From contig JAAZNV010000005.1 in the NCBI GenBank assembly GCA_012798115.1, forward strand, positions 1-50,703: DNA of 50,703 nucleotides, in the 5' to 3' direction. This document shows positions 7,483 through 22,506 of this stretch, piece by piece. Below the pieces are notes generated by a model. The model made no database searches. It was not told the DNA's origin and was given only the letters and a program-made list of their open reading frames with translations. The position numbers and the translations under genes are program-made. The number at the start of each line of letters is the position of its first letter. Position 1 is the stretch's first letter. The DNA comes from a candidate division WWE3 bacterium. Lineage in GTDB: Bacteria > Patescibacteriota > WWE3 > UBA101185 > UBA10185.

Positions 7483-7492
7483 TCCATATGAT

Positions 7493-9370: not shown

Positions 9371-9403
9371 GTGCCTATCTTGATGTTTTTAGTGATAGGG
9401 TGA

Positions 9404-9562
9404 TTAGTTGCTTGGTGCTGACTTAGAAGGATTACCATGTTTCACCCATTGATTGTCATTTTTTATCCATGTATCCTCGTCCCCTCCAAGTACAAATCTT
9501 ATAACAAAAATTACAAGTAAAAAGATGATTGTTATTAGCAAAAAGAGTGTTTTTTTCTTCAT
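9404..9562 (-). CDS. 52-aa membrane-anchored small protein (not in ORF track)
   Basis: MKKKTLFLLITIIFLLVIFVIRFVLGGDEDTWIKNDNQWVKHGNPSKSAPSN; start overlaps the tspO stop (TAATG). Confidence 0.7.
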   Translation of the reverse strand: MKKKTLFLLITIIFLLVIFVIRFVLGGDEDTWIKNDNQWVKHGNPSKSAPSN

Positions 9563-10035
9563 TAATTTAGTAAAACTATGTATAAGTTAAGAATTGCTGC
9601 AAATGTTACCCATAAAATATAAGGGATAAGAAGAATTGCGGAAGGAGTATATATTTTGTGAAATGCTTTTATTGTATAAACAATTGCGCACCATAAAAAT
9701 ATTACGTCTATAAAAGCAAGAAGTGGGGATCTCAATCCAAAGAAAAGAATAGACCACAGCAAGTTAAGAAAAAGTTGAGCGTCATATATCCTTATTGCTC
9801 TATCTGAAGTTTCTTTATCCTGTGCCCTTTTGTTTACTAGGTATGCTGATATCGCCATCAAAATGAATAATATTGTCCAAGCTAAGGAAAATGCCCAATC
9901 CGGTGGGTTAAACATTGGTTTGTTTAAGGTGTTGTACCAACTTCTTACTGCTGGTGCAGTAACAGCTCCTCCTATTAAGGATACAAGCAAAACTTTAACC
10001 AAGTTAGAAATTATATGCTTTAGGTTTTTAAGCAT
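9562..10035 (-). CDS. tspO: TspO/MBR family membrane protein
   Basis: WYNTLNKPMFNPPDWAF, WSILFFG, LLIPYILWVTFA. Confidence 0.93.
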   Translation of the reverse strand: MLKNLKHIISNLVKVLLVSLIGGAVTAPAVRSWYNTLNKPMFNPPDWAFSLAWTILFILMAISAYLVNKRAQDKETSDRAIRIYDAQLFLNLLWSILFFGLRSPLLAFIDVIFLWCAIVYTIKAFHKIYTPSAILLIPYILWVTFAAILNLYIVLLN

Positions 10036-10162
10036 TCATTCTCATTATGCCATTGCAACTGATGCTAGTAAATGTTGCATAGGATCTATGTTGTTAGTCT
10101 GTTCATTAGACAACTAACTAATGCTTACTTAGAAAGTTTTCAAGTATTCTAATTTATAGGTT

Positions 10163-10606
10163 TTATTTATAGTATTCTCTGACTTGAAATAGTAAGTACA
10201 AAGAAAGTACTGTGCTTATTATTCCTCCAATTATATCAAAGTTAACAAGCGAGTAAATTGCACTTAGAAGGATAGAATAAAATAATAAATCCCATCCTTT
10301 TGTTGACTTAGCAAACAAGCCTGATATTGATAAACCTCTTAGCACTAAGTTTGCAATGAGGAATATTGTTAATATGAAATACCTTACGCCTACATGTGCA
10401 AACATGTAGTTCCTCATCTCGTAAACCTCAATATAAGAACCAAATCCAAGAACAGAAAGTATTGTTGGTATTGCTGCTACGACAGAAATAATTACTCCCC
10501 ATGGTGCAAGCTGTACAAGCAGATCCTTAATATTTTTAGGTAGTGCAGGAGCCTTTTTAACATACTCATCTATAGTTTTTATTAATTTTTTAATATGTTT
10601 ATCCAT
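10163..10606 (-). CDS. hypothetical multi-TM membrane protein
   Basis: several hydrophobic helices; AAGGAGG SD upstream. Confidence 0.75.
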   Translation of the reverse strand: MDKHIKKLIKTIDEYVKKAPALPKNIKDLLVQLAPWGVIISVVAAIPTILSVLGFGSYIEVYEMRNYMFAHVGVRYFILTIFLIANLVLRGLSISGLFAKSTKGWDLLFYSILLSAIYSLVNFDIIGGIISTVLSLYLLFQVREYYK

Positions 10607-10733
10607 AATTCCTCCTTAGTTAAGTAAGCTTTGCAAATAAATGCTTCTTATTAAATTAAACCTTTACGATGATGTTCATGTCAAGCAAGGAGATTGCCTT
10701 ATTCTTTGATTAGTATTTATGAATGTAGAGCTA

Positions 10734-11423
10734 TCAAACATTTAGGTCGAGTATCATTGGAAGGTGATCGGATACATTTAAATTTGGAACTGAAAATTTA
10801 TTTATATTTAAATCTGGTTTTATAAATACATAGTCTGCAAATAATTGTTTGTTGTTTGGGTATTTATTCCACGCGAGGTTGTTTCTTGTTGTTGGTATTT
10901 TGTATTTCTTTATTAAGTTTACATAACCATTCTTTTCAAACATTTCTATAGATTCAGTATGTGGGTCTAGATTAAAGTCTCCTCCTATTATTTTTATTTC
11001 ATCAAGGCCTTGGAAGAAGCTTAAAATTTCTTGTGATTGTTTTATTCTTTCTTTGGTATCGTCCTTGTGTTTTGGACGCGGTGTTCCATGAACATTACAT
11101 ATATTTATTAATTCGTTGTTGTACTTTATTTTTGTGTTTAGTGCTGTCCCAACATTTAACATCTCTTTTAATAAGTAATCGTTAGATACAATTTCCATAT
11201 CGTTTTTTATGTAGGTAGCTTCATGAAAATCATCATCTCCTTTCATATCTTTAAAGTTAAATATTTCATTGTAGTTACTGAAAATATTCTTATACATTTC
11301 TCTTGCTGCTTTACCTACTTCTTGCAGACAAAATACATTTGTATCTTTTGATTGTTCTTTTAAGAATGTTTTAATGTTGTTTATTTCGTGGTAACTCCAA
11401 GTGTTTAGGAATAATATCTTCAT
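10734..11423 (-). CDS. endonuclease/exonuclease/phosphatase (EEP) family protein
   Basis: LN, CLQEV, NVH, GGDFN, DYVF, SDHLP. Confidence 0.92.
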   Translation of the reverse strand: MKILFLNTWSYHEINNIKTFLKEQSKDTNVFCLQEVGKAAREMYKNIFSNYNEIFNFKDMKGDDDFHEATYIKNDMEIVSNDYLLKEMLNVGTALNTKIKYNNELINICNVHGTPRPKHKDDTKERIKQSQEILSFFQGLDEIKIIGGDFNLDPHTESIEMFEKNGYVNLIKKYKIPTTRNNLAWNKYPNNKQLFADYVFIKPDLNINKFSVPNLNVSDHLPMILDLNV

Positions 11424-11472
11424 TAGAAAATTATAACTTTAATATTTCTTGTGTTTCTATATGGAAAATAAA

Positions 11473-11498
11473 CCAGCGTTTTGAATAGGTAACGCTGG
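11473..11498 (-). terminator. intrinsic terminator hairpin
   Basis: CCAGCGTT...AACGCTGG with an A-run on the left. Confidence 0.6.
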
Positions 11499-11524
11499 AG
11501 ACCTTTGTAAAGATTGGGTACTTT

Positions 11525-11821
11525 CTAGTCCCTACGTGAGGATGAACTCCCACTCCCACCAAGAATAATACCTGCTCCAAGGACAAAACCAAAGTCATAC
11601 CAGTTCCCATTGTTGTGTACATCGTAAACACTTACATCATCTGTAAACAAAGAAATAAAGAACGTTATTGGAGAAATTATTCCGTGCCACAAGCCTGACC
11701 AAAATCCAGCAACTTTGCCGTTTTCATCAGCAGTTTTGACGTAAGGATTAGGCCCTGGAACGCAGGAAACCAGAAGAAACATTAGTCCAATAAGAATAAT
11801 GAACAAAAACTTTTTATTCAT
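11525..11821 (-). CDS. small predicted lipoprotein
   Basis: signal peptide with lipobox LVSC; AGFWSGLWHG...WYDFGF pattern. Confidence 0.75.
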   Translation of the reverse strand: MNKKFLFIILIGLMFLLVSCVPGPNPYVKTADENGKVAGFWSGLWHGIISPITFFISLFTDDVSVYDVHNNGNWYDFGFVLGAGIILGGSGSSSSRRD

Positions 11822-11941
11822 TTTGACTCACCTTTCTTGTTCTTTTGTTGAGTGGATTATATTATGAAATAACTACGGCGCAACCAACTAAGCGGAATAA
11901 AAATTAAGTTTCTTGTTGAGTAAATAATGGTCGGAGAAGTA

Positions 11942-11975
11942 AAAAGAGGTTTAATCAAAGGGTTAAACCTCTTTT
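11942..11975. terminator. bidirectional terminator
   Basis: AAAAGAGGTTTAA-N8-TTAAACCTCTTTT perfect inverted repeat. Confidence 0.75.
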
Positions 11976-11991
11976 GAGGAGTTGCTTAATA

Positions 11992-12591
11992 TCAGATAAA
12001 CTTGGGATACATAGTCTTGATGGCAACACTCAATAGCAACGCTTGAGCATCGTCGAAATTTGCCCTGAACTCTTTCCCCACTAAATCTTTAGGTCTTTCC
12101 ACCTCAAAGTATTTCATTACAAGAGTAAAAGCTTCTTCCTTTAAGAAAGCTGTGCTTATTGTCAACGGTGTCATATACCCTTTTGGATGGCTTTCTACCC
12201 TTATCGCCCAATAGTTTTCTTCCCGATCAAGCAAAAGATGTCTTACGTTTGGCTTAATGCGTATAATCTTCCATACATAAGGATTATACTTTTTCTCCCT
12301 TTCTCGGTAAGTGGATATTTTTAAGCCTCTTTCTTTTGGATAGTGGGATCGAAGGAAGTTTTCCAAAACTTTTTTTACATCAAATTCGAAGTAGTCTACA
12401 TCAAAAGTATGGTTTCCTTTAAAATCCCGTAGATTCTTTACCCCAAGACTTTTCATCAAAAGTTCCAAGGTTCTAGGATTTATGAGTAATGAGCCACCAG
12501 AACCAGCTCCATCTCCACTAATATGCAACCAAACTACGTAGTTTGGTTTCATTCGCTTTACAAAGTGGATCTTAGCTTTCACATTTTCCAT
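11992..12591 (-). CDS. hypothetical protein with an apparent two-fold internal repeat
   Basis: LLMKSLGVKNLRDFKG vs LVMKYFEVERPKDLVG; SD AGGAGAGG; own promoter. Confidence 0.75.
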   Translation of the reverse strand: MENVKAKIHFVKRMKPNYVVWLHISGDGAGSGGSLLINPRTLELLMKSLGVKNLRDFKGNHTFDVDYFEFDVKKVLENFLRSHYPKERGLKISTYREREKKYNPYVWKIIRIKPNVRHLLLDREENYWAIRVESHPKGYMTPLTISTAFLKEEAFTLVMKYFEVERPKDLVGKEFRANFDDAQALLLSVAIKTMYPKFI

Positions 12592-12621
12592 ATTTACCTC
12601 TCCTTTATTTGACTTTGGAGG

Positions 12622-12650
12622 ATTCTACCATACAAAACTTGTACGATCAA
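12622..12650 (-). promoter_or_regulatory. sigma70 promoter
   Basis: TTGATC-N17-TAGAAT on the minus strand. Confidence 0.65.
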
Positions 12651-12702
12651 ACACTACAAGTTATGAGCCCATTATATAGAACTTCATATGAAGTATTGTG
12701 GG
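12651..12702 (+). repeat. cassette-boundary repeat (motif 1 + motif 2)
   Basis: ACACTACAAG-N18-GAACTTCATATGAAGT-ATTGTGGG. Confidence 0.7.
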
Positions 12703-12720
12703 AGCCAATACTGGTAGAAG

Positions 12721-12755
12721 TTGACTAAAATATGTATGTATAATACACTACAGGG
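12721..12755 (+). promoter_or_regulatory. sigma70 promoter overlapping motif 1
   Basis: TTGACT-N17-TACACT, overlapping ACACTACAGGG (12745-12755). Confidence 0.5.
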
Positions 12756-12825
12756 TGTAAGTAACAGCTACTTACAAACTAGCAAAATGCTGGTTTATTG
12801 ACAATTACAGAACGTAGGAGGAGAA

Positions 12826-13851
12826 ATGGGAACGGATTCGTTGTATAACCAAAAGCTTATAAAAGCATACCCTTTTGTATCTGATATCTTATCAGAGCAG
12901 ATGGAGCCGTATAATGGGCAGGATGACGGTCGTCTAGATAACCTCTTAATCATCCGTGTGCAGAAAGCAGATGCAGACCTTATGTTTAAGCGGGCTCATA
13001 ATTTAGGACTTGGAAATAGTGATTCGTGTGCTTTTTCTACTATTCGCCAACACGAAATGCATATTGGGAAACGTGGGGAATACATGTTTGCTATTGATAA
13101 TTCGGAAAAAATTATTAACCGTGTTGACTGGCCAAGAGATCGTGAGGAACAAAGGAAGGCAGACCAGCTTTGTGTCTATGCCAGCGATATTTTCTGGTCC
13201 CAAAGGCATGAGCGTATTTACTCAGGCTCAATTATTGAGAAGGTAAAATACCTCGTTTGGGTAACTGTTGAAGCTTGGTATACAGATAATAAGTATACGG
13301 ATGACAAGTATACAGGCAACGAGAGGGGTTATAGGAGCAGATTTGGAGAGTTACTTAGTACCTCAATCCGCATCACAATTTATCAAGAGCCTGAGCAAGG
13401 GTTTGAAAAACTACTAAAGGAGTCAAATTTGTATGAAAGCCTTGTACTTGATACTCGGTTACTCCAGCGTGGCTTAATGATGAGGGATGTTGATATTATT
13501 ACAATGAGAGGCATGTTGGGAGAAATGTGTATTACATTTCAAGATGAGGTGTACTTCAATGGGATGAAGGAGATGCGTGAGAAAGTTGAGTTTCGTAGTG
13601 CATCGGGGAAGTTCGGTGCCGTCCGAGTTCTTTGTGCCGAAATGTGTGGGTGTGACTTTGTCACGTTGAGGGACGTTGATAGCCAAATTACCTTTCGAGT
13701 CTACTCAGATTTCACGCACATGCATGTAGTTGGGCAGACGGGGACACTCCCTCAAATCCGTAATCTTGTTAAAACAGTTGTACGGATGTGGAATCAAAAC
13801 ACTGAAGCAAGAAATGCGTTCAAAACAAATGAGGATCTCTATGTTGTGTAA
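12826..13851 (+). CDS. hypothetical protein with foreign-looking codon usage
   Basis: 341-aa ORF, SD AGGAGG, many CGN Arg codons unlike the core genes. Confidence 0.8.
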   Translation: MGTDSLYNQKLIKAYPFVSDILSEQMEPYNGQDDGRLDNLLIIRVQKADADLMFKRAHNLGLGNSDSCAFSTIRQHEMHIGKRGEYMFAIDNSEKIINRVDWPRDREEQRKADQLCVYASDIFWSQRHERIYSGSIIEKVKYLVWVTVEAWYTDNKYTDDKYTGNERGYRSRFGELLSTSIRITIYQEPEQGFEKLLKESNLYESLVLDTRLLQRGLMMRDVDIITMRGMLGEMCITFQDEVYFNGMKEMREKVEFRSASGKFGAVRVLCAEMCGCDFVTLRDVDSQITFRVYSDFTHMHVVGQTGTLPQIRNLVKTVVRMWNQNTEARNAFKTNEDLYVV

Positions 13852-13872
13852 ATAAATAGACACTCAACCTAA

Positions 13873-13904
13873 AAGGTGTGCGTGAAGCAATTCATTCACA
13901 CCTT
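13873..13904. terminator. terminator hairpin
   Basis: AAGGTGTG...CACACCTT followed by a T-tract. Confidence 0.65.
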
Positions 13905-13981
13905 ATTTTTGTATTTAAAAGCAAAGGAAGGAGACTGTATTATGAGGATATGTTAAATTAGTACCCTTTAGCTAGTTGTCT

Positions 13982-14015
13982 ATTTAGCATAGAACCTTTA
14001 TACGAAAGGTTGTAG
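13982..14015 (+). repeat. cassette-boundary repeat (motif 2), dif-like
   Basis: ATTTAGCATAG-AACCT-TTATACGAAAG-GT-TGTAG. Confidence 0.6.
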
Positions 14016-14037
14016 ATGTGACTAATAAAAGAGTGTT

Positions 14038-14910
14038 TTATCCCAACTTAATCATTAAGGTTCCTAAAGACATTACTATTGCTGCAATCCAGCTGTATCT
14101 TGTTGGTTTGTCCCTGAGGAATAAGTAGCTAAAAATTAAAACAAAGAATATTTGCAATCTTTTTATTCCCAAAACTAGTGCAATAGGCCCACCTGTAAAA
14201 GCAGAGAAAACAAGTAGAGTGGATATGCCATAGGTAAGACCATTTGCAAGTAAAATAACAAAGTTATCTTTGAATTCTTTAAACCACTTTTTATGTTCTT
14301 TTTTAAATAAGTATGCAGTTAAGATGACAATCATAATCATATCTTCAACTAACAGGGTAAATGCTGCGTTTATTGGTTGGGTATTGTTTATTCCTATCTT
14401 ATCGAAAATTGCAGTAAGGGCATTTAGCATTATGGCAAAAAGGAAAAGAAGATAAGATTTGTTGGTAAATAAGAGCTTAAGGGGTTTTAAGAGATCTTCC
14501 TTGGCTTGATCTGCATTTAAGATATAAGAACCTATGATTGTGAGGAATAAACCAATTACAGGGACAAGTCTCAAAGACTCTGACAAAAATAGTAGACCGA
14601 AGATATAAGTAAAAAATCCGTTAAAAGCTGCTAATGGGAAAACTTTAGATACCGAATTGTTCTTTATGGTTTCGTTAGATATGGTTTTTGAAAAAATAAA
14701 TGTTAACGAAGAAGCAACTACTCCAAGGAAAAACATTTGGTTTAAAGAAGGCAATCCATTTTTTATTGCAAAGTAAGCAATCAAAGGAAGAGATAAAGTA
14801 AAAAGCGACCAGGTTAGCACAGTTGCACTTACTTTATTTAAAACCTTTTTATTTAAAGTTATCTCTACTGCGCCTGTAATAGCTGAACAAAATGCTAACC
14901 AAAACCACAT
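14038..14910 (-). CDS. EamA/DMT family transporter
   Basis: about 10 TM helices in two repeats, LFLSE and LFLRDK ends. Confidence 0.88.
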   Translation of the reverse strand: MWFWLAFCSAITGAVEITLNKKVLNKVSATVLTWSLFTLSLPLIAYFAIKNGLPSLNQMFFLGVVASSLTFIFSKTISNETIKNNSVSKVFPLAAFNGFFTYIFGLLFLSESLRLVPVIGLFLTIIGSYILNADQAKEDLLKPLKLLFTNKSYLLFLFAIMLNALTAIFDKIGINNTQPINAAFTLLVEDMIMIVILTAYLFKKEHKKWFKEFKDNFVILLANGLTYGISTLLVFSAFTGGPIALVLGIKRLQIFFVLIFSYLFLRDKPTRYSWIAAIVMSLGTLMIKLG

Positions 14911-14997
14911 GGGGTAATTATAACAAGAGAGCTTCTTTGTGTAATAAAGGTAGTTTTATTGAATGATTAAGTGGCTGTTTTCTCTATTACTTTATGT

Positions 14998-15339
14998 TTA
15001 AAAGTTATATTGTTCTAACCAATTTAGGAATAAAGTTTTGTCATCTTAAGTTGTAACTCTTAAAACGCAGCCCTCTACCATCAAAGAGTGTCCTATATAC
15101 CTAGTAGTGTCTGCAATCTGCTAAATATTCTTCATTCTTGCTTGGGTTGAAATCCATTAGTGGAATGTGTTCAGTCTTTCCTTTGTTTAATCAACTTTAG
15201 AGAGGAATCCTATTTGGTATAGTTCTGGAATCTCTCTTTCTAGCTTTTCAATAAAGTCTCTTCTAAGAATATCATCTCTATAAAACCAATAGGGATTTCT
15301 CCCACTCTCAATATGTTGTAATGATTTATATTGATATGG
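14998..15339 (-). pseudogene. possible decayed gene of unknown family
   Basis: 114-codon frame reading PYQYKSLQHIESGRNPYWFYRDDILRRDFIEKLEREIPEL...LNWLEQYNF* with 4 internal stops, in an otherwise empty 600-bp gap. Confidence 0.3.
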
Positions 15340-15440
15340 CTAAAAGTTGATTTTGTTATTCGTTTATTGGAGGTAAGTGTGCTGTTCTCATGAGGAGGTT
15401 ATGCATTACCTTTATTTGTGTTCAAGATTTGCCTCATTAG

Positions 15441-15456
15441 GAACTTTATACGAGGA
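15441..15456 (+). repeat. cassette-boundary motif 2
   Basis: (CCTCATTAG)GAACTTTATACGAGGA. Confidence 0.6.
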
Positions 15457-15478
15457 ATTAGTGGCGTTTGGAAAATAA

Positions 15479-15508
15479 AAAACCAGGCTTTTTGTAGAGT
15501 CTGGTTTT
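15479..15508. terminator. bidirectional terminator
   Basis: AAAACCAGGCT...AGTCTGGTTTT. Confidence 0.65.
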
Positions 15509-15514
15509 GTTTGT

Positions 15515-15781
15515 TCATTTATAAAGCTTATCTGTATCTGTAGCTTCTTTTACTGCGAAATTAGCATCTTCCCCTAATTCTTTGAGTAATTCCAACAATC
15601 TGAGTGTTCTCCTTGCATTTTCACGTAGAAGATTCTCACGTGTGTCCACGTCTGTTATAGTTGATGTTGTTAAGAGTGCTTGGCCATATCTTATGGTTTT
15701 TGCTAATTCTGTTTTCAGGTTTTTTACCCTAAAATTTCTCTTAATTTCTTTAAACGAGTTTTTAATTGTTTTCCGACACAT
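15515..15781 (-). CDS. small helical hypothetical protein
   Basis: SD AGGAGAG; promoter TTGCTG-N17-TATAAT (15820-15848); terminator downstream. Confidence 0.7.
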   Translation of the reverse strand: MCRKTIKNSFKEIKRNFRVKNLKTELAKTIRYGQALLTTSTITDVDTRENLLRENARRTLRLLELLKELGEDANFAVKEATDTDKLYK

Positions 15782-15850
15782 AGCTCTCCTTGTCTTTTGT
15801 ATCTTGAATATTAACTTGGATTATATATTAAAATACTTTAACCAGCAACC

Positions 15851-15896
15851 ACTACAGGGTATTAACTCTCGATGTGAACTTTATGCGAACTGCAGT
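15851..15896 (+). repeat. cassette-boundary repeat (motif 1 + motif 2)
   Basis: ACTACAGG-N17-GAACTTTATGCGAACTGCAGT; the ends ACTACAG/CTGCAGT are near-inverted. Confidence 0.7.
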
Positions 15897-15948
15897 ATAT
15901 GTTTTCTTGGTATACTTTAAAAGTAATTGTTTCTATTAAGGAGGTTTT

Positions 15949-16461
15949 ATGGATAAACTAGAAAAAGATAATTTATCACTCAAAGAAAAATTAGAATCTA
16001 GCATGACACAAGAGCAGGTAGAAATTTTCCATCAAAAAATAGAAAAGTTGGGAGGAGAACTCCATGATATTTGGAGAGAATCTAGAAAAAAAGAAGATGG
16101 TACTTTTGAACCTCGTGTAAAAGCTACAAAAGATAATGAGTGGATTAATTCTCATGGAACTAACCAGGTTGACATTGCAAATACTAGCTTTGAGAGTTTG
16201 CCAAACGACTGGCAAGTAGAAAACAGGGCATCAGCCGAAGTTGCAGTCTCTTTGATATATGAGGCGAAGATTAATAAGAAAGCAATAGATAGTGCTTTTG
16301 TTGAAGAAGCTAGTTCTGTTGTACATGATAAGTGGCTTGAGAGAAACTCTAGTTGGGCACCTGCTGAGCAAAAAGTAAGTTATTCAGAACTGCCGGAAGC
16401 CGAAAAGGAAAAAGATAGGGCTATTATTAGAAAAGGGGTAGATGTAGTTAAGCAAGATTGA
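15949..16461 (+). CDS. RyR-repeat-like domain protein
   Basis: two copies of HDxW...(F/Y)xxLPxxxxxxNR/DR: HDIW...FESLPNDWQVENR and HDKW...YSELPEAEKEKDR. Confidence 0.65.
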   Translation: MDKLEKDNLSLKEKLESSMTQEQVEIFHQKIEKLGGELHDIWRESRKKEDGTFEPRVKATKDNEWINSHGTNQVDIANTSFESLPNDWQVENRASAEVAVSLIYEAKINKKAIDSAFVEEASSVVHDKWLERNSSWAPAEQKVSYSELPEAEKEKDRAIIRKGVDVVKQD

Positions 16462-16528
16462 TTCTTGTTAATGACACAAAAAGACATTATTGTCTTCTCA
16501 TACAAAGGGAAGGTAATGAAGGGATAAA

Positions 16529-16574
16529 AAACACCGTAAGGTAGATAATCACTTTTCTACATAATACGGTGTTT
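16529..16574. terminator. bidirectional terminator between convergent genes
   Basis: AAACACCGTA...TACGGTGTTT. Confidence 0.65.
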
Positions 16575-16588
16575 GTGAAAGCTTAGCA

Positions 16589-17182
16589 CTATGTTAACTG
16601 ATTGCCGTATTTCCAAAATTTTTTTAGAAATGCTACTGCCAAGAGATTTGTGAAACCAGATAGTCCTATGTAATCCAACTCTTGTTCTAACTTATCTTGG
16701 ATATCAGCAGGTTTGCTACCTTTACGTATTTCTTGCTGCATGGCAACTGCCCAGCCTTGAATGAATTTAATAATCTCTTTTGATAGGTTGTCCTTTCGTT
16801 GGGCCCAACATGTTCTTAGATACGGAATGAGTTTATACCAAGGAACTTCCATCTTTTCTGTAGAAAGAAGTTGGTAAACCCGTTGTTTTTTAGCTTTGCA
16901 TTCCGCATGGTATTTTGCACACTCCTGTTTCCACAATGCTTTTCGAAAAGGGGTGCAACTTTGTTTAAGAGCATATTTCCACTGACGTAAAGCCTCTTTC
17001 TTGGTCATTTCTGGAGAAACAATAATTTGAATACCATTGAATAAACAAGTTATTCTTGTTCCCGATAACTTAGAACGATTAACCATCTCACTCAAGACAC
17101 AATCAATATGTTCACCTGCATGAGGTCGGTAGCATACAAAACTATTTACACGCTTTTTCCAGTTGTTTGACAAACTATACAT
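16589..17182 (-). CDS. hypothetical protein, possibly phage-like family
   Basis: FNG and GLSGF...W-x-YG-x-QL segments recall phage hypotheticals (from memory, unverified); SD and promoter present. Confidence 0.7.
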   Translation of the reverse strand: MYSLSNNWKKRVNSFVCYRPHAGEHIDCVLSEMVNRSKLSGTRITCLFNGIQIIVSPEMTKKEALRQWKYALKQSCTPFRKALWKQECAKYHAECKAKKQRVYQLLSTEKMEVPWYKLIPYLRTCWAQRKDNLSKEIIKFIQGWAVAMQQEIRKGSKPADIQDKLEQELDYIGLSGFTNLLAVAFLKKFWKYGNQLT

Positions 17183-17227
17183 TAATATTCTCCTCTCCTT
17201 TTATTGTTTTATTTAGGTTAGTTTAAG

Positions 17228-17267
17228 ATTATACCTTGAATACATTCTTGCGTCAAACACTACAGGG
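17228..17267 (-). promoter_or_regulatory. sigma70 promoter abutting motif 1
   Basis: minus strand CCCTGTAGT-GT-TTGACG-N17-TATAAT. Confidence 0.75.
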
Positions 17268-17316
17268 TTTGCAAGGTTAGTGAGTGTTTAAGGGAATAAA
17301 AAAGAACCTCTTGAAA

Positions 17317-17625
17317 TTATCTTTGAGGTTCAGTTAGTTCCACTGCAGTGATATCTAATAACCTGTTAATAATCGTTAGGAAATCACGCCAACGGCAATT
17401 CCAATTGTAAGGACTAGATATAATAAATTGTGAAGCTAGCCCACCTGCTTTAGTTGTCTCCTCGTTTGGGTATGTTCCACAATCATTTAACTCAGCCATC
17501 TTGGCCCGTACTTTATCAGCAACCTCATTTCTTACGTTTAGTATCATTTCAAACTTTAGGTGGCTGATTTCAATTTTAGCCACAGTAACGTTTGCCTTTT
17601 TCCATTCAAACGTTTGATTTGCCAC
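17317..17625 (-). CDS. hypothetical protein
   Basis: GTG start with SD AGGAGG; promoter TTGATT-N17-TATTCT (17665-17693). Confidence 0.7.
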   Translation of the reverse strand: MANQTFEWKKANVTVAKIEISHLKFEMILNVRNEVADKVRAKMAELNDCGTYPNEETTKAGGLASQFIISSPYNWNCRWRDFLTIINRLLDITAVELTEPQR

Positions 17626-17693
17626 AACCCCTCCTTATTTGGATTTTCTAGAATTCTAACACTTAGAATATCATAAGTGCCCTAATCAATCAA

Positions 17694-17740
17694 GCTATAG
17701 GATATTGTCTCTCATTGCAGAATTTCATGCGAAGCGTGGC
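17694..17740 (+). repeat. cassette-boundary repeat (motif 1 variant + motif 2)
   Basis: GCTATAGG-N18-GAATTTCATGCGAAGC-GTGGC. Confidence 0.7.
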
Positions 17741-17751
17741 AGGGAATTGTT

Positions 17752-18810
17752 TTATTTCAGAAAGTAGTTGTCGTTCGAGAATTTTACCTGCTCAATAAAG
17801 ATTTTACTGAAGGCCACAGCACTTAGCTGTTCATAAAATAGAATAGTTGCTTTTTTGAACTGATCTATATCTACGTTTCTGTATGATAGTGGTAGTAAGT
17901 CATTTGCAAGAAGTATGGCGTTGCATAGCATTCTGGCAGTTCTCTTGTTTCCATCAGAATAAGGTTGGACATATGGAAACATAACGCTGGCAATAAATGC
18001 CTTAAGATATGGATCCGTTACCTTATTTACCATTTCAACAGTTTTTTCTAAAGCCTCCTTAAGTTGATGCTCGTTGCCTAAGGGTCTGTAGATGGTTCCT
18101 GTTATTCCAACCTCGTGTCTCCTAATTCCAGTTGATATCTCAAGTCCTTTGACCAAGGTGTTATGAAGTTGGTTTATAACTGATATAGAAATCGTTTTGA
18201 AATTTCTTTTGTTTGCTAGAATATTATCAAAGGCATGTTTATGATTTAAGATCATTAGGGTTTCTGCTTTACTTTTACCACTTGCCTCTTTTTGTTCCTT
18301 GATTAAAGACTCTGTTTCTAACAAGGTATATGTATTTCCTTCTATTTTTGATGATTTCCAAGATAGCTCTATGGTAAATCTTTCCAGTTCCCTTCTGATT
18401 AAATCTGGGGAAATACCCTTTGTTTTATCTGAGAAACTTACCGTTGCGTTCTTTAATGGCATTAATATATCCGCTAGTTGAGGATCTGTTAAATATTCAA
18501 AGATTTTACTGTCAAATGTTTTTTTGGCTCCCACTCGTTGATCAGGGTCGTATGAAAAGTAATTTTCTATATCAAAAACTCTCAAAAGAGGATTATGGGA
18601 AATTGGGTAGTACATCGTTGCCTTGGCTTTGCCTTCGGATCTGATTAACTTTAATTTTATTAGTAAGTTAAGATCTCTTATCAGTGTGGGTTTAGAGACG
18701 CTGTATGTTGGGAATAGCTTTTCAGCTATCTTTTCTCTTAAAATTCCGCCTGATTGATTGATGATGTTTGAAATGTAACGTTGGCGTGGTGTAAGAATCG
18801 TATCATTCAT
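17752..18810 (-). CDS. Fic-domain protein with N-terminal winged HTH
   Basis: SKPTLIRDL wHTH, SSKIEGN, QPYSDGNKRTAR; start placed at ATG 18810 just after the promoter (ORF track extends to 18846). Confidence 0.9.
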   Translation of the reverse strand: MNDTILTPRQRYISNIINQSGGILREKIAEKLFPTYSVSKPTLIRDLNLLIKLKLIRSEGKAKATMYYPISHNPLLRVFDIENYFSYDPDQRVGAKKTFDSKIFEYLTDPQLADILMPLKNATVSFSDKTKGISPDLIRRELERFTIELSWKSSKIEGNTYTLLETESLIKEQKEASGKSKAETLMILNHKHAFDNILANKRNFKTISISVINQLHNTLVKGLEISTGIRRHEVGITGTIYRPLGNEHQLKEALEKTVEMVNKVTDPYLKAFIASVMFPYVQPYSDGNKRTARMLCNAILLANDLLPLSYRNVDIDQFKKATILFYEQLSAVAFSKIFIEQVKFSNDNYFLK

Positions 18811-18846
18811 ATATATAAATCGTATCATTTTGAGACGATTTGTCAA
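18796..18846 (-). promoter_or_regulatory. Fic promoter with putative operator repeats
   Basis: TTGACA-N16-TACGAT; AATCGTATCATT twice plus an inverted copy TGAGACGATTT. Confidence 0.65.
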
Positions 18847-18865
18847 TCCCTACATATGTGGGAGG

Positions 18866-19065
18866 CAATTATATTTTTATGACCTGGGCATAAGAAACAC
18901 TATTGTAGATGACTTCAGTGAGTTGGAGCTTAGAACTGATCTCGGATGTGTTTGGAGAATTTTTTAATTGTTGAGAGATTAAAGTATAGGGAAAATTCCG
19001 ACATCTTTGCTAACCAATACTTTTGGAGGACCTATGATAAAGGAGAGATTGATTTGGTGGAATAA
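18866..19065 (+). pseudogene. fragment of a COG1373/DUF4143 ATP-binding protein C-terminal domain
   Basis: QLYFYDLGIRNTIVDDFSELELRTDLG /frameshift/ ENFLIVERLK...YFWRTYDKGEIDLVE*. Confidence 0.8.
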
Positions 19066-19093
19066 AAAGAGTTGAAAATTAATTCAACTCTTT
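19066..19093. terminator. bidirectional terminator
   Basis: AAAGAGTTGAA-N6-TTCAACTCTTT. Confidence 0.7.
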
Positions 19094-19111
19094 ATTAAAA
19101 AGTAGTAATAA

Positions 19112-19393
19112 CTAAAGATCATGTTCTTCCTTTGGTACGTGTAGATTTTCGTCCAAAAACTTAATGAGATTCTGAAGAACTACAGTAAAAAAGATTTCCA
19201 GTTTGTAGAAGTAAAAATCAGTGTGCTCGCTATTCTTCTCAATGTAAGGTCCTTGTATAGGAATCTCTTTTAATATTTTTCTTATTTCTTGTTGAACATC
19301 TCCCGAGATTCTATCAGTGACTCTTAGAATCATCATGTCTTTTGTTGGCAGGGACTCAAGACGAGCCTTGGTAGGCCATATATACAGTATCAT
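19112..19393 (-). CDS. hypothetical protein (93 aa)
   Basis: ATG 19393 with SD AAGGAG; the longer ORF-track start falls inside the promoter. Confidence 0.7.
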   Translation of the reverse strand: MILYIWPTKARLESLPTKDMMILRVTDRISGDVQQEIRKILKEIPIQGPYIEKNSEHTDFYFYKLEIFFTVVLQNLIKFLDENLHVPKEEHDL

Positions 19394-19421
19394 TTCTATC
19401 TCCTTAACTTTGTTTGTTGGA

Positions 19422-19460
19422 ATTATATAGAAACAACAAACTTGTGTCAACTACTACAGG
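19422..19460 (-). promoter_or_regulatory. consensus sigma70 promoter abutting motif 1
   Basis: minus strand CCTGTAGT-AG-TTGACA-N17-TATAAT, 4 nt after the tRNA-Asn CCA. Confidence 0.8.
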
Positions 19461-19464
19461 ATGT

Positions 19465-19539
19465 TGGCTCCCCCGAGTGGATTCGAACCACTAACCTTGT
19501 CCTTAACAGGGACCTGCTCTACCGTTGAGCTACAGGGGA
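19465..19539 (-). tRNA. tRNA-Asn(GTT)
   Basis: TCCCCTGTAGCTCAACGGTAGAGC...CT-GTT-AA...GGTTCGAATCC...GCCA. Confidence 0.95.
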
Positions 19540-19565
19540 ATACTTAGCGTACAGATACTATCACA

Positions 19566-20429
19566 CTAATTTTTAGGGTTCAATGCTCCTTCTTTTTCCT
19601 TAAACATCTTATCTAAAACAATAAAAGAAAGAAAAGTATTTAGCACAAAAAACCAAGGATAAGCAGAAACATCTAAACTAAATAAGCTAAATAACGTTTC
19701 AACAATAATTGGTAATGTCATTGTGTGTATTCCTATTCTACATGCAGATAAGAAATTAATTTTCTTTTTCTTTAACAAGGATAAAAGATAAACTGCCAAA
19801 CCTATCCATAAAATGTACATAAGTTTGTAACCAAAGAAATCAAACAGAATCTGCCCAACAAACAACACTAAAGGCAGCAAAAAAGGAACATACTTAATGT
19901 ATTTATAAACATTATTTATTCCTTCAATAGCCTTTGACTTATCAATGTCTGCATTAGGCAAATCCTTTACAGGGTAAGCCTTAATACCAGAAGCATTGTC
20001 ATTAGTTAAAATATTACTTTCATTAACCAAAGCAAATGTCTTGAAGCTACTAAAATCATTAATAGTTCCTTGTTTATAAAAAACAACAGCATTATCAACA
20101 TTAGCACTATACTTTTCTTTAATAGATTGAGGCATTGGAATGATATAGGGTTCTGGCTTGTTTATACTCCATTTTCCATCCTTAATGCTTATAACTAGAT
20201 CATCTGGGTAAATATTCTTAACTTCTTCAACCCCAGTCTTTAACCATGCTTTAGTTTCAGGCACCATTTTTATACTAACAAAGGAAGTAAAAATTAAAGA
20301 TACTAAAACAGCTAACATTAAGTAATACTTAAAAGTAAAGGAAAACTTAGTTTCCAAAAGCTCTTTGTAGTACTCTGGTGAAGATATACTCTTCTTAAAG
20401 ACATAAAAAAATGTTTTTAATTTATTCAT
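19566..20429 (-). CDS. DUF1189-like membrane protein
   Basis: KKSISSPEYY N-terminus, TM + soluble domain + 4 TM, HTMTLP. Confidence 0.65.
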   Translation of the reverse strand: MNKLKTFFYVFKKSISSPEYYKELLETKFSFTFKYYLMLAVLVSLIFTSFVSIKMVPETKAWLKTGVEEVKNIYPDDLVISIKDGKWSINKPEPYIIPMPQSIKEKYSANVDNAVVFYKQGTINDFSSFKTFALVNESNILTNDNASGIKAYPVKDLPNADIDKSKAIEGINNVYKYIKYVPFLLPLVLFVGQILFDFFGYKLMYILWIGLAVYLLSLLKKKKINFLSACRIGIHTMTLPIIVETLFSLFSLDVSAYPWFFVLNTFLSFIVLDKMFKEKEGALNPKN

Positions 20430-20492
20430 AGCAATATTCTAGCAAATAAATTAATAAGAAACAGATGTAACCTGGAATGATAAAATAATATT

Positions 20493-20843
20493 ATGAATTA
20501 TCAAATATCATCAGACAATATAGAACTAACTCCAAGCATGGAAGTATTAACAAAGGAGAAATTTGAAAGAATAGAGTCAAGAACTAAAAACCTTCCTAAA
20601 GATTCTTGCTTTGCAAGAATTGTACTAAACTCTGCCCCTGAAAATAGATTTAATGTGAAAGTAAATTTAAGTTTAAGTAGTAAGGAATACTTTTCTGATG
20701 AAGAAGACTACTCCCTTGAAGGAGCTTTGATTAAAGTAGTGGAAGAATTGTTGGAAATGATGGAAAAAGATAGTATAGTCCAAAGAAGAAAAGACCTAAA
20801 GGAAGAAGAAAGAATAGAAAAAGCACTAACAGAAGAGGTATGA
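20493..20843 (+). CDS. hpf: ribosome hibernation factor (HPF/RaiA family)
   Basis: MNYQISSDNIELTPSM...EKF N-terminal pattern, size. Confidence 0.8.
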   Translation: MNYQISSDNIELTPSMEVLTKEKFERIESRTKNLPKDSCFARIVLNSAPENRFNVKVNLSLSSKEYFSDEEDYSLEGALIKVVEELLEMMEKDSIVQRRKDLKEEERIEKALTEEV

Positions 20844-20847
20844 GTTT

Positions 20848-20923
20848 GGGTGATTAGCTCAATTGGCAGAGCAAGCGTCTTATACACGCTCGGTTCCAGG
20901 TTCGAGTCCTGGATCACCCACCA
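20848..20923 (+). tRNA. tRNA-Ile(TAT)
   Basis: GGGTGAT/ATCACCC acceptor, AGCGT-CT TAT AC-ACGCT anticodon arm, discriminator A, CCA. Confidence 0.92.
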
Positions 20924-20951
20924 TAATAAACTATTTTCCTGGTTCATTTAA

Positions 20952-21287
20952 ATGATATTAATACTTAAGGATAAAGCCACGAAAGAACAAATTAAAAATA
21001 TTACTGAAGTGTATCCTGGGTACACAAAGGTGGTTGTTGATATAGAATGTGGTTTGTTGTCGGCAGGGGGTGAATATCATATAGATTGTGAGCAAACATT
21101 GCTTGAAAATGGAAGTATTCAAGAGAATTTATGGGGAGGAGGTTATAGGTTTGAAAACAAAGAAGTTGATTTTATAGGATTAACAAACTACAAAGCAGGT
21201 ATTAAACACTTCTCTTACGAAGTATCAATTCCAGAAATCAGGGAAAGGATGGAAGTAATTATTAGGGGAATCTTTGATAATGAATAA
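20952..21287 (+). CDS. DUF5674-like protein
   Basis: KVVVDIE...GGEYHIDCEQTLLENGSIQENLWGG. Confidence 0.75.
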   Translation: MILILKDKATKEQIKNITEVYPGYTKVVVDIECGLLSAGGEYHIDCEQTLLENGSIQENLWGGGYRFENKEVDFIGLTNYKAGIKHFSYEVSIPEIRERMEVIIRGIFDNE

Positions 21288-21552
21288 GTCTAAGTTGAAT
21301 ATAAGAATGGATCTCATGCGTGTTGCAAAAATAGCATTAGAATTGGATAAGCCTTTTGAAGAAAATATTGCAAACGTTTTTATTAACAAAGCTAGGTCAG
21401 AATTTGAAGAGAACCTGAAAGATGAAAATAAACTTAAAGATGAGCTTATTTCTTACCAGAAGGAGATTCCAATCATAGCTCTTGATACTAAGAAGAGAAA
21501 ACAGTGGGGAGAAAAGATAATGACTATTGCTTCAAGATTAGGAACTTTCTAG
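21280..21552 (+). CDS. small helical hypothetical protein
   Basis: overlaps the upstream stop (ATGAATAA); MDLMRVA...GEKIMTIASRL. Confidence 0.65.
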   Translation: MNKSKLNIRMDLMRVAKIALELDKPFEENIANVFINKARSEFEENLKDENKLKDELISYQKEIPIIALDTKKRKQWGEKIMTIASRLGTF

Positions 21553-21583
21553 CGTTTGCTTATACATGTGCTAAATATACAAA

Positions 21584-21606
21584 AAACGACCTTGCATAGG
21601 TCGTTT
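21584..21606. terminator. bidirectional terminator
   Basis: AAACGACCT-TGCAT-AGGTCGTTT. Confidence 0.7.
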
Positions 21607-21630
21607 CTTGATTTTAATTTTAATTATTAA

Positions 21631-22506
21631 TTACAAGATAGAAAGTTCTGTCTTATCCATCTTTTCTGGTTTTTCAACGTAATCAAGATATTTCTCAGTT
21701 GTTGAAATTCTCTTGTGTCCTGCTACCTTAGCAAGATAAGTAATGTTAACACCATTTCTAATATGATTAGCAACAAAGGTATGTCTTAAATCATTTACCT
21801 TAGCGTTTTCTACACCTGCTAATCTAAAAAATCTGTCAATTGTAGATCTAATGTTTCTAATAAGAAGGGGTCTACCTGATTTTGTAATAAATACGTTAGT
21901 AGATTTATCTGATTTTACTCTAGTGTTATTAATATATTTACTTAATGCCTCAACAGCTGCTTTATTAAGAGGAACTATTCTTTCTTCCCTGTTGTTTTTT
22001 CTAGCAATAAACAATGAACCTGTTTCTCCTTTAATATCTAAATCTTCCAGCTTCATTCCTGCAAGCTCTGAAATAGTAATTCCTGCTTGGAGGAGAACTT
22101 CAATCATTGCGTATGATCTATTATCGTCCTTTGCAGCATCTCTTAATGCTCTATATTCAAGCTTAGTTAAAATTCTTGGAGCTTTTGTTTCAAACTTAGG
22201 GTGCTTTAATTGGTCTGAGATATCTTCTTTTAATATACCTTCTTTGTTTAAATACTTAATAAAAGTTCTAGCAGCATTTGTCTTTCTTGAAATAGACTTT
22301 GGAGTGTAATTTTCATTAGCTAAACTCTTCATAAATGATTCAAGATGTTCTATCTTCATACCTTCAACATCATCTACACCTTCTTTTGCTAAGAAAGTTA
22401 CTATTTGTTCAATATCTTTATTGTAAGCAACAAGAGTTGCTTCTGACTTCCCATCAGCTTTTAATTTTTCTATAAACTTTTTATGAACTGTTTGTAATTT
22501 AGTCAT
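21631..22506 (-). CDS. XerC/XerD-like tyrosine recombinase
   Basis: N-terminal SAM-like domain (SEATLVAY..D), ERIVPL, NDLRHTF, AGHKRISTTEKY; first catalytic Arg position reads GITISEL. Confidence 0.9.
   Translation of the reverse strand: MTKLQTVHKKFIEKLKADGKSEATLVAYNKDIEQIVTFLAKEGVDDVEGMKIEHLESFMKSLANENYTPKSISRKTNAARTFIKYLNKEGILKEDISDQLKHPKFETKAPRILTKLEYRALRDAAKDDNRSYAMIEVLLQAGITISELAGMKLEDLDIKGETGSLFIARKNNREERIVPLNKAAVEALSKYINNTRVKSDKSTNVFITKSGRPLLIRNIRSTIDRFFRLAGVENAKVNDLRHTFVANHIRNGVNITYLAKVAGHKRISTTEKYLDYVEKPEKMDKTELSIL

What the first reader, a model, noticed from the sequence alone, without database searches (positions are those of the whole stretch)
11900..19539. Candidate non-integron gene-cassette array anchored at tRNA-Asn and delimited by a repeated bipartite site
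Seen: about ten unrelated genes or remnants, most with their own promoter, strong SD and terminator. They are separated by a degenerate ~45-bp direct repeat, CTRCARG/CTATAGG-N17/18-GAAYTTYATRYGAA, followed by TGTGG/TGCAG/GTGG. Full copies are at 12651, 15851 and 17694; partial copies at 12745, 13992, 15441, 17257, 18850 and 19453. All are intergenic and in one orientation. The last copy lies 4 nt from the tRNA-Asn CCA, and a Xer-like recombinase is encoded 2 kb away. I see no IntI-type gene, attC-like site, transposase or phage module. Inference: single genes are captured or shuffled by site-specific recombination, as in integrons or pdif modules, but using a different site. The array may extend left to ~9.4 kb with decayed sites.
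Basis: partly seen in the sequence, partly recalled or inferred. Interest (0 to 1): 0.88.

Follow-up and report, generated by a model that had tools for sequence, protein, structure and literature searches.

The report
Integration-scar gene array beside tRNA-Asn
A stretch of unrelated single genes next to a tRNA-Asn gene in a tiny-genome bacterium is built of small modules joined at copies of the tRNA's last bases, most likely by repeated site-specific insertion, a known way of making variable gene islands.

Summary
Read on the minus strand (the tRNA's strand) it has three parts. First comes an arm, TTCGKATAAAGTTCYGTAT. Last comes CCTRTAGTR next to the -35 of a sigma-70-type promoter.

The promoter part is not special to this array: it occurs with such promoters in 24 of 31 related genomes. 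The arm plus core recurs in one-orientation arrays between single genes in at least six related genomes, three of them directly after tRNA-Asn. Gene blocks shared between species start and end at the core. Arm families and right flanks assort freely around it, and gene order differs between species.

In two relatives a large serine recombinase gene abuts tRNA-Asn. The same genome holds a 7.8-kb element with such a recombinase, bounded by a 12-bp direct repeat, and one of its ends is a member of this repeat family.

Best reading: serial site-specific integration at tRNA-Asn, as in the Dehalococcoides ssrA islands. In this window the modules lack an integrase and the cores are decayed. Excision or activity is not shown.

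The parts
19465..19539 (-). tRNA-Asn (GTT). Its last 10 nt (19465-19474, GGGGGAGCCA on the minus strand) are the anchor copy of the core.
   Evidence: ARAGORN; Rfam tRNA; core compared.
19422..19460 (-). CCTGTAGTA + G + TTGACA-N17-TATAAT promoter, 4 nt after the CCA. First module start.
19112..19393 (-). 93-aa ORF, no family.
17752..18846 (-). Fic-domain protein (SoFic-like), with a promoter-like site at 18819-18846 and a weak CCCTACATATG at 18848-18858.
   Evidence: Pfam Fic 6.6e-11; PADLOC SoFic 2.3e-22.
17693..17746 (-). Unit 3: arm TTCGCATGAAATTC, decayed core (ATGAGAGACAA), then CCTATAGC. It starts 6 nt after the Fic stop codon.
   Evidence: R1 hit, E 5e-9.
17317..17625 (-). 102-aa ORF, no family.
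17228..17266 (-). CCTGTAGTG + T + TTGACG-N17-TATAAT promoter. No arm was detected upstream.
16589..17182 (-). 197-aa ORF with a Tad4-like C-terminal domain.
   Evidence: Pfam PF25186 9.6e-11; phrog_9822.
15949..16461 (+). 170-aa ORF on the opposite strand. A homologue (61% identity) lies directly beside tRNA-Asn in relative G004.
15820..15903 (-). Unit 2: arm TTCGCATAAAGTTC, decayed core (TCGAGAGTTAA), then CCTGTAGTG + TTGCTG-N17-TATAAT promoter.
   Evidence: R1 hit 15850-15903, E 4.6e-9.
15515..15781 (-). 88-aa ORF followed by a terminator-like hairpin at 15479-15508.
15441..15454 (-). Arm-only remnant (CTCGTATAAAGTTC). It is followed by about 500 nt without a long ORF (14911-15412).
   Evidence: Not found by R1 at E<=5.
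14038..14910 (-). EamA-family transporter. It is 86% identical to a gene that follows a unit in G003:C34.
   Evidence: Pfam.
13967..14019 (-). Decayed unit directly after the EamA stop codon.
   Evidence: R1 hit, E 2.4e-3.
12826..13851 (+). 341-aa ORF on the opposite strand, no family.
12679..12749 (+). Inverted unit on the plus strand: arm, GGAGCCA (12701-12707), CTGGTAGAAG, then promoter-like TTGACT-N17-TACACT.
12622..12705 (-). Unit 1: arm TTCATATGAAGTTC, decayed core (ATGGGCTCA), then CTTGTAGTG + TTGATC-N17-TAGAAT promoter.
   Evidence: R1 hit 12652-12705, E 7.9e-10.
11992..12591 (-). 199-aa ORF, no family. A homologue (62% identity) lies between two units in G003:C34.
21631..22506 (-). 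Xer-like tyrosine recombinase. It is conserved and syntenic in all 8 relatives compared; a role in the array is not shown.

Best explanation
Window 11.9-19.5 kb is the tRNA-proximal part of a variable island that grew by repeated site-specific integration at the 3' end of tRNA-Asn.

Reading from the tRNA along the minus strand, each junction has three parts:
- an element-derived arm.
- a short core equal to the last bases of tRNA-Asn, GGGGAGCCA(A);
- the start of the next module, often CCTGTAGTR plus a sigma-70-type promoter that drives a single gene.

Newer modules lie nearest the tRNA. The recombinase is not encoded in the array. The most likely kind is a large serine recombinase acting from a complete element, as in relatives and on contig C10 of this genome.

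In this window the modules lack an integrase and their cores have decayed by 2-4 of 10 positions, so most junctions are probably scars.

Shown: the anatomy, the identity of the core with the tRNA end, recurrence in relatives, breakpoints at the core, and the association with serine recombinases.
Inferred: the integration mechanism, the order of events, and which enzyme acted.
For: 1. Unit anatomy and significance.

2. In better-kept copies the core reads GGGGAGCCA(A), identical to the tRNA-Asn 3' end.

3. Model R1 hits at E<=0.1 occur in 17 of 31 related genomes. Strong hits form same-orientation arrays between single ORFs in G003, G012, G013, G014 and G016, and on G000 contig C6. Arrays follow tRNA-Asn in G000, G012 and G016.

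4. GGAGCCA lies on one strand within arrays. In G014:C17 it is 8 on plus and 0 on minus in 7.3 kb; in G013:C24 it is 5 and 0; in G012:C3 it is 4 and 0.

5. A 1056-nt two-gene module (DUF6922 + AbiEii) is shared by the G012 tRNA-Asn island and G003:C34 at 83.5% identity. The shared block starts at GGGGAGCCAA and ends right after GCGGAGCCAA, with different sequence outside.

6. Arm families and right flanks assort independently around the core.

7. Homologues of window genes 11992-12591 and 14038-14910 each follow a unit in G003:C34, but in the opposite order.

8. Large serine recombinase genes overlap the tRNA-Asn 3' end in G003 and G018. G018 has three serine recombinase genes on one strand in its tRNA-Asn island. 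The 3' end of one of them overlaps an arm-like sequence plus core plus the same ATTAG that follows the tRNA.

9. The serine recombinase on G000 contig C10 is 58% identical to that one. Its element is bounded by a 12-mer that occurs only twice in the genome, 7.8 kb apart. The distal copy is an R1-family unit followed by a CCTGTAGTG promoter.

10. In run X6, a contig 99.6% identical over 19453-22402 carries 526 nt of unlike sequence from 12 nt past the CCA.
Against: - No recombinase gene or remnant lies in the window array. tblastn with 7 serine recombinases found nothing there except the trivial overlap with the tRNA.
- The window's own cores are degenerate, so the identity of the core rests on copies elsewhere.
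- No long exact duplicate of the tRNA-Asn 3' end exists in G000.
- Large serine recombinases normally need only a 2-nt crossover and do not reuse attL-type sites, so tandem reuse of the site is unexplained. It is nevertheless observed in G018.
- The break in an X10 contig lies at 12647, about 15 nt from the core, not in it.
- Strain X4 has the same array with about 1% divergence, so turnover is not rapid.
- No excision or circular junction was seen; only contigs were available.
- Relatives are species representatives, related to each other and mostly fragmented.
Confidence: 0.65

Rival explanations
1. This is an active integron-like capture platform of the host. The tRNA-Asn 3' end serves as the entry site. 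The conserved neighbouring Xer-like tyrosine recombinase (or the second one on C14) moves integrase-less single-gene cassettes that carry arm-core sites.
For: - Core spacing is cassette-like, 0.45-2.1 kb.
- A constant 7-10-nt core with variable arms suits the overlap region of a tyrosine recombinase.
- Arms and flanks assort freely.
- The Xer-like gene lies 2-7 kb from tRNA-Asn in all 8 relatives compared.
- No integrase lies inside the arrays examined.
Against: - The Xer-like gene sits in a block of conserved core genes, so its nearness may be plain synteny.
- Both tyrosine recombinases score as generic Xer. Integron-integrase models give 53 and 123 bits against a cut-off of 265.
- Serine recombinases, not tyrosine recombinases, are the genes found physically at these junctions.
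- The modules carry their own promoters.
- The window's cores are decayed.
Confidence: 0.15
2. The units are cis-regulatory DNA (an operator plus a promoter) shared by co-regulated accessory genes. They coincide with module boundaries only because promoters are intergenic.
For: - The proximal part is clearly promoter-linked: 62 composite promoters in 24 of 31 genomes and 0 in controls.
- Three window units sit at a fixed distance upstream of -35/-10 hexamers.
Against: - Many units have no promoter after them: window 13967 and 15441, both strong C6 copies, and most copies in relatives.
- The core equals a tRNA 3' end.
- Shared blocks end at the core.
- One family member is the end of an element bounded by direct repeats.
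Confidence: 0.08
3. The units are only decayed leftovers of tRNA-Asn 3' duplications, or are used as patches of homology for ordinary homologous recombination. No dedicated site-specific enzyme is involved.
For: - The cores are short and degenerate in the window.
- No exact tRNA duplicates exist in G000.
- A strain-level break lies near, not exactly at, the core.
Against: - The arm families are conserved across genera while the genes between them differ. This is not expected of neutral scars.
- A core of 7-12 nt is too short for efficient homologous recombination.
- Serine recombinases sit at the junctions.
Confidence: 0.07

Closest known systems
Dehalococcoides ssrA-specific genomic islands (PMC3146451; passages read)
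   Same: - Tandem islands lie downstream of a small RNA gene and are bounded by direct repeats of its 3' end.
- A conserved motif that does not come from the gene lies directly upstream of each repeat.
- A serine recombinase of about 540 aa lies on the reverse strand next to the gene-proximal end.
- Some islands lack an integration module; the authors suggest these are cis-mobilizable elements.
   Different: - The target here is tRNA-Asn, and possibly other tRNAs with similar ends.
- The shared core is only 7-12 nt, against 20 bp.
- Modules are mostly single genes of 0.45-2 kb, often with their own promoter.
- Several unrelated arm families share one core.
- The host is a 0.76-Mb, 33% GC genome.
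- The supplements of that paper were not seen.
Tycheposon-type island growth in Prochlorococcus (bioRxiv 10.1101/2020.12.28.424599; passages read)
   Same: - Serial integration at tRNA genes pushes older elements further into the island.
- Partial tRNAs and degenerate elements are scattered through hypervariable islands of a streamlined genome.
   Different: - The passages I read speak of integrase-carrying elements and label a tyrosine recombinase (YR) in a figure legend.
- They give an attachment site of about 40 nt.
- Here the candidate enzyme is a large serine recombinase, and most modules have no integrase at all.
Integrons (general knowledge, recalled; only a listing was seen)
   Same: One-orientation arrays of single-gene cassettes are joined at a short conserved core with variable flanking sequence. 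The cargo is of diverse and unknown function and includes toxin-antitoxin pairs.
   Different: - There is no IntI.
- The arms fold no better than shuffled sequence.
- The modules carry their own promoters.
- The entry site is a tRNA end.
pdif modules and Xer-exploiting elements (recalled, no paper read)
   Same: Small integrase-less modules are bounded by short recombination sites that a recombinase encoded elsewhere would have to use.
   Different: - As I recall, pdif sites flank modules in alternating orientation and have an 11-6-11 dif-like form.
- Here all units in an array point one way.
- No dif-like site was recognised.

Membership tests
Integron | An IntI-type tyrosine recombinase next to the array. 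| tested here: not met
   Only two tyrosine recombinases occur in G000, both Xer-like. Integron-integrase models score 53 and 123 bits against a cut-off of 265.
Integron | attC sites: imperfect palindromes that fold as hairpins. | tested here: not met
   12 arm+core stretches were folded as single-stranded DNA. Z-scores ran from -2.41 to +1.41, and only 1 of 12 was below -2. IntegronFinder itself could not be run.
Integron | Mostly promoterless cassettes read from a common promoter. | tested here: not met
   Composite sigma-70-type promoters lie at module starts. No transcript data are available.
Tandem tRNA/tmRNA-targeted islands made by large serine recombinases (ssrA-island type) | The array is anchored at the 3' end of a tRNA or tmRNA gene and runs in the same direction. 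| tested here: met
   tRNA-Asn heads the array in G000, G012 and G016. The units are on the tRNA's strand.
Tandem tRNA/tmRNA-targeted islands made by large serine recombinases (ssrA-island type) | Direct repeats of the gene's 3' end lie at island boundaries. | tested here: inconclusive
   The feature is met in relatives and on C6 (GGGGAGCCA; 16 nt in G017). In the window the cores are decayed and no exact repeat exists.
Tandem tRNA/tmRNA-targeted islands made by large serine recombinases (ssrA-island type) | A conserved element-derived motif lies directly upstream of each repeat. | tested here: met
   The type-A arm is seen in 23 model hits over 13 sources. Other arm families are listed.
Tandem tRNA/tmRNA-targeted islands made by large serine recombinases (ssrA-island type) | A large serine recombinase gene lies on the reverse strand at the gene-proximal end. 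| tested here: not met
   It is absent from the window. It is present at tRNA-Asn in G003 and G018, at tRNA-Asp on C4, and in the bounded element on C10 of the same genome.
Tandem tRNA/tmRNA-targeted islands made by large serine recombinases (ssrA-island type) | Excision to a circle and re-integration. | not testable with these tools
   Only contigs of public runs could be laid.
pdif / Xer-dependent modules | dif-like 11-6-11 sites in alternating orientation around the modules. | tested here: not met
   All units in an array point one way. My dif-like pattern scan found nothing usable and rested on recalled motifs.

The most novel reading that the evidence does not exclude
These small-genome bacteria run an integron-like gene-capture system that arose independently of integrons. 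Integrase-less single-gene modules each carry one of several arm families plus the constant core GGGGAGCCA. A recombinase encoded elsewhere moves them in trans into the 3' end of tRNA-Asn, and into any existing arm-core junction. That recombinase would be a large serine recombinase of a resident element, or the conserved Xer-like enzyme. The CCTGTAGTR element that follows the core would serve both as a promoter part and as the target-side half-site.
Probability: 0.2. Interest if true: 0.85.

Novelty: new variant of a known kind. Interest (0 to 1): 0.55.

Why it matters
Bacteria with very small genomes are thought to have few routes for gaining genes. This locus and its relatives show a recurrent hotspot beside tRNA-Asn where single genes are added, reordered and shared between species and genera at a short defined site. 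The cargo seen includes transporters, a Fic protein, a toxin-antitoxin pair, glycosidases and an ATPase.

If the integrase-less modules can be moved in trans, this would be a compact cassette system with a simple and testable site. Separately, the CCYRTAGYR element next to the -35 is a lineage-wide promoter feature. It could help to annotate promoters in these uncultured bacteria.

Tried and rejected
- **Hairpin idea.** I tested whether the arms mimic the tRNA T-arm, or an attC site, as hairpins. Twelve arms folded as single-stranded DNA do no better than shuffles. Rejected.
- **Arm derived from the tRNA T-arm.** Only the core and trailer align with the tRNA, not the arm. Not supported.
- **dif-like or loxP-like reading of the arm.** I saw a resemblance from memory. 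A scan for dif-like sites found no convincing site. I dropped it and do not use it as evidence.
- **IS200/IS605-type (Y1 transposase) origin.** PF01797 has no match in G000.
- **Known RNA families.** Rfam finds only the two tRNAs and two chance-level hits in 9000-21000.
- **Serine recombinase remnants in the window.** None found.
- **Long exact tRNA-3' duplicates in G000.** None found.
- **Metagenome contigs.** A search with the 287-aa neighbour of tRNA-Asn gave only 3 distant loci (27-40% identity). These were not used.
- **Coverage gap in run X6.** X6 has no cover over about 13114-18972. I use only the contig that carries unlike sequence left of 19453.
- **Small-share runs.** Runs with small shares of the words (X10-X15) are not used for habitat or strain claims. 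Of X10, which was laid, I cite only the break at 12647, as a caveat.
- **Pattern error.** One search used a wrong spacer length and found nothing meaningful. One search repeated it correctly.
- **Literature.** My searches found no paper on such arrays in Patescibacteria or candidate-phyla-radiation bacteria. This covers only the held library. The supplements of the two papers I read were closed and may hold relevant site alignments.

Full report
**Setting**

The window is contig C12 of a 760,854-bp assembly in 14 contigs with 33% G+C. The stretch 11.9-19.5 kb holds nine ORFs. Seven are on the minus strand. tRNA-Asn lies at 19465-19539, also on the minus strand.

Family searches name only three of the nine: an EamA transporter, a Fic (SoFic-like) protein and a Tad4-like C-terminal domain. 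The rest match nothing.

**The repeat, read on the strand of the genes**

- The strict bipartite pattern occurs three times in the whole genome, all in the window. It is absent from 30 relatives and from reversed-pattern controls.
- The distal half, with at most one mismatch, gives 4 matches against 0.72 expected.

The 'partial copies' are mixed. Two carry the distal half (13992, 15441). Three carry only CCTGTAGTR (12745, 17257, 19453). One is weak (18850).

**The proximal half is a promoter element**

- Pattern [CT]T[AGC]TAG[TC][AGT] followed by TTGA occurs 28 times in the genome. Sixteen of these lie in the 13% of the genome outside long ORFs.
- Many strong TTGAC-N17-TAnAAT sites elsewhere have CCYATAGTG or CCTGTAGTR directly upstream.
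- The composite CYTRTAGYR-N0-1-TTGAY-N17-19-TANAAT occurs 62 times in 24 of 31 related genomes, with 0 in reversed-pattern controls.
- One such promoter in G000 precedes an ORF with an LPKTG-type motif near its C-terminus (read by eye as a surface protein). A 249-aa ORF follows it, which I took for a sortase without a family search.

This half is thus a lineage-wide promoter feature, not a mark of the array.

**The real unit**

I aligned nine copies from the window, from other contigs of G000 and from relatives (A2). From them I built a sequence-only model, R1.

- R1 finds hits at E<=0.1 in 17 of 31 genomes. There are 9 in G000: 4 in the window, 3 on C6, 1 on C2 and 1 on C10.
- Across genomes the conserved part is about 33 nt: (A)AACTTCGKATAAAGTTCYGTATGGGGAGCCA(A). 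What follows varies, and it is a promoter in only some copies.
- The end of the unit, GGGGAGCCA(A), equals the 3' end of tRNA-Asn, GGGGGAGCCA followed by A.
- In the window copies this core is decayed to ATGGGCTCA, TCGAGAGTTAA and ATGAGAGACAA.

**Arrays in relatives**

Units lie in one orientation between single co-directional ORFs:
- G003:C34: promoter, 129 aa, unit, 194 aa, unit, 290 aa.
- G014:C17 and G014:C51.
- G013:C1 and G013:C24.
- G012, directly after tRNA-Asn.
- G016, 1.3 kb after tRNA-Asn.
- G000:C6, between tRNA-Arg(CCT) and tRNA-Pro.

G013:C1 is the syntenic locus. It starts with an rpoD homologue 93% identical to window 5553-6914.

The word GGAGCCA is confined to one strand in these arrays. 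In G014:C17 it is 8 against 0 in 7.3 kb; in G013:C24 it is 5 against 0; in G012:C3 it is 4 against 0. Of the 37 occurrences listed in 11 loci, 2 are on the other strand.

At least six arm families end in GG-GGAGCCA.

**Synteny**

To the right of tRNA-Asn the genes are conserved in all 8 relatives compared: a 287-aa gene, an HPF-like gene, tRNA-Ile(TAT), the Xer-like gene and two tRNA-Met.

To the left nothing is shared in place, with two exceptions. A homologue of 15949-16461 lies beside tRNA-Asn in G004. A homologue of 10163-10606 lies in the islands of G017 and G013.

**Breakpoints at the core**

- A 1056-nt module encoding DUF6922 and AbiEii proteins is shared at 83.5% identity by the G012 tRNA-Asn island and G003:C34. 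The homology begins at GGGGAGCCAA, where the two genomes have different arms to the left. It ends right after GCGGAGCCAA, and the sequences beyond differ in all three copies seen.
- In G033 and G016 a related module is flanked on both sides by GTAGAGCCATGAA. In three other genomes it has no such flanks.
- Arm families and right flanks assort independently. One arm family precedes seven different flanks. One flank follows two different arms within G014. Another flank follows different arms in G012 and G016.
- Homologues of window genes 11992-12591 (62%) and 14038-14910 (86%) each follow a unit in G003:C34, but in the reverse order.

**Strains**

Only contigs could be laid.
- Run X4 holds the whole region colinear, at about 1% divergence.
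- In X6, a 3476-nt contig matches 19453-22402 with 12 differences. To the left it carries 526 nt unlike the window. Similarity therefore ends 12 nt past the CCA, inside CCTGTAG. By eye, the 30 visible bases form another -35 and the start of a -10.
- An X10 contig matches up to 12647 and then runs on unlike the window. That point is about 15 nt from the core of unit 1: near it, not in it.

**Recombinases**

G000 has two Xer-like tyrosine recombinases (window 21631-22506, and one on C14). Neither reaches the XerC, XerD or integron-integrase cut-offs. It has no Y1 transposase. It has three large serine recombinases.

- One serine recombinase overlaps the 3' 30 nt of tRNA-Asp on C4. One lies 173 nt from tRNA-Gln on C7.
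- In G003 and G018 a serine recombinase gene overlaps the 3' end of tRNA-Asn. G018 has three serine recombinase genes on one strand, about 8 kb apart, in that island.
- The 3' end of the second G018 gene overlaps an arm-like sequence, then GGGGAGCCA, then the same ATTAG that follows the tRNA. The third shows no such junction.
- The C10 enzyme of G000 is 58% identical to that second G018 enzyme.
- A 12-mer occurs exactly twice in G000, at C10:3744 and C10:11583. The first copy lies within the last codons of the recombinase gene. The second is the core of R1 hit C10:11551-11605 and is followed by a CCTGTAGTG promoter. Together they define a 7.8-kb element with attachment-type direct repeats.
- Resolvase-domain proteins occur in 54 of 86 genomes of the family.
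- The window itself has no serine recombinase remnant.

**Reading**

The anatomy matches the tandem ssrA islands of Dehalococcoides (PMC3146451, passages read). Those show direct repeats of the RNA gene's 3' end and a conserved motif, not derived from the gene, just upstream of each repeat. A serine recombinase of about 540 aa lies on the reverse strand at the proximal end, and some islands lack an integration module.

It also matches the serial integrations and scattered partial tRNAs described for Prochlorococcus islands (preprint 10.1101/2020.12.28.424599, passages read).

I therefore read the window array as the product of serial site-specific integration at tRNA-Asn. It is now without an integrase and has decayed cores.

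What differs from the known cases:
- the very small single-gene modules, often with their own promoter;
- the short core;
- the several arm families that share it.

**Limits**

- No excision product was seen.
- The enzyme is inferred from association only.
- The relatives are related to one another and fragmented.
- The window's own cores are degenerate.
- I could not see the supplements of either paper.

Noticed in passing
Genome-wide; in the window for example 25543 (+), 19422-19460 (-), 17228-17266 (-): A lineage-wide element, CCYRTAGYR, lies 0-1 nt upstream of the -35 of sigma-70-type promoters. There are 62 composite sites in 24 of 31 related genomes and 0 in controls. Two forms exist: CCTATAGTG directly next to TTGACA, and CCTGTAGTA + N + TTGAC. 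The second form often lies 3-8 nt after a ...CCA end.
   Followed up: partly
G000 contig C10:3733-11605 (outside the window): A 7.8-kb element holds a 526-531-aa large serine recombinase, an ORF read by eye as a LexA-like repressor and one read by eye as a NUDIX gene. It is bounded by a 12-bp direct repeat that occurs nowhere else in the genome. Where C10 joins the chromosome is unknown.
   Followed up: partly
G000 contig C6:25984-29581 (outside the window): A second small array lies between tRNA-Arg(CCT) and tRNA-Pro. It holds three units with a 215-aa ORF, a 112-aa ORF read by eye as CutA-like, and a 340-aa SNase-domain ORF. Its two strong units are the best-kept copies in this genome.
   Followed up: partly
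G000 contigs C4:18171-19694 and C7:10751-12292: Large serine recombinase genes converge on tRNA-Asp (overlapping its 3' 30 nt) and on tRNA-Gln (173 nt away). These suggest further integrated elements.
   Followed up: no
window 20848-20923: A tRNA-Ile with anticodon TAT is conserved at this place in all 8 relatives compared. As far as I recall, this anticodon is rare in bacteria.
   Followed up: no
window 14911-15412: About 500 nt upstream of the EamA gene have no long ORF. Strain X4 differs here by small insertions and deletions, including a 65-nt skip at 15229-15295. This is probably the remains of a lost module.
   Followed up: no
window 6925-11821: The genes between rpoD (5553-6914) and the array have no counterpart at the syntenic site of G013, except a homologue of 10163-10606. 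The variable region may therefore reach left to rpoD. No units were detected there at E<=5.
   Followed up: partly
Relatives G003:C27, G008:C58, G009:C101, G012:C3: These contigs end 3-6 kb past tRNA-Asn. This fits strain heterogeneity or repeats breaking the assemblies at this locus.
   Followed up: no
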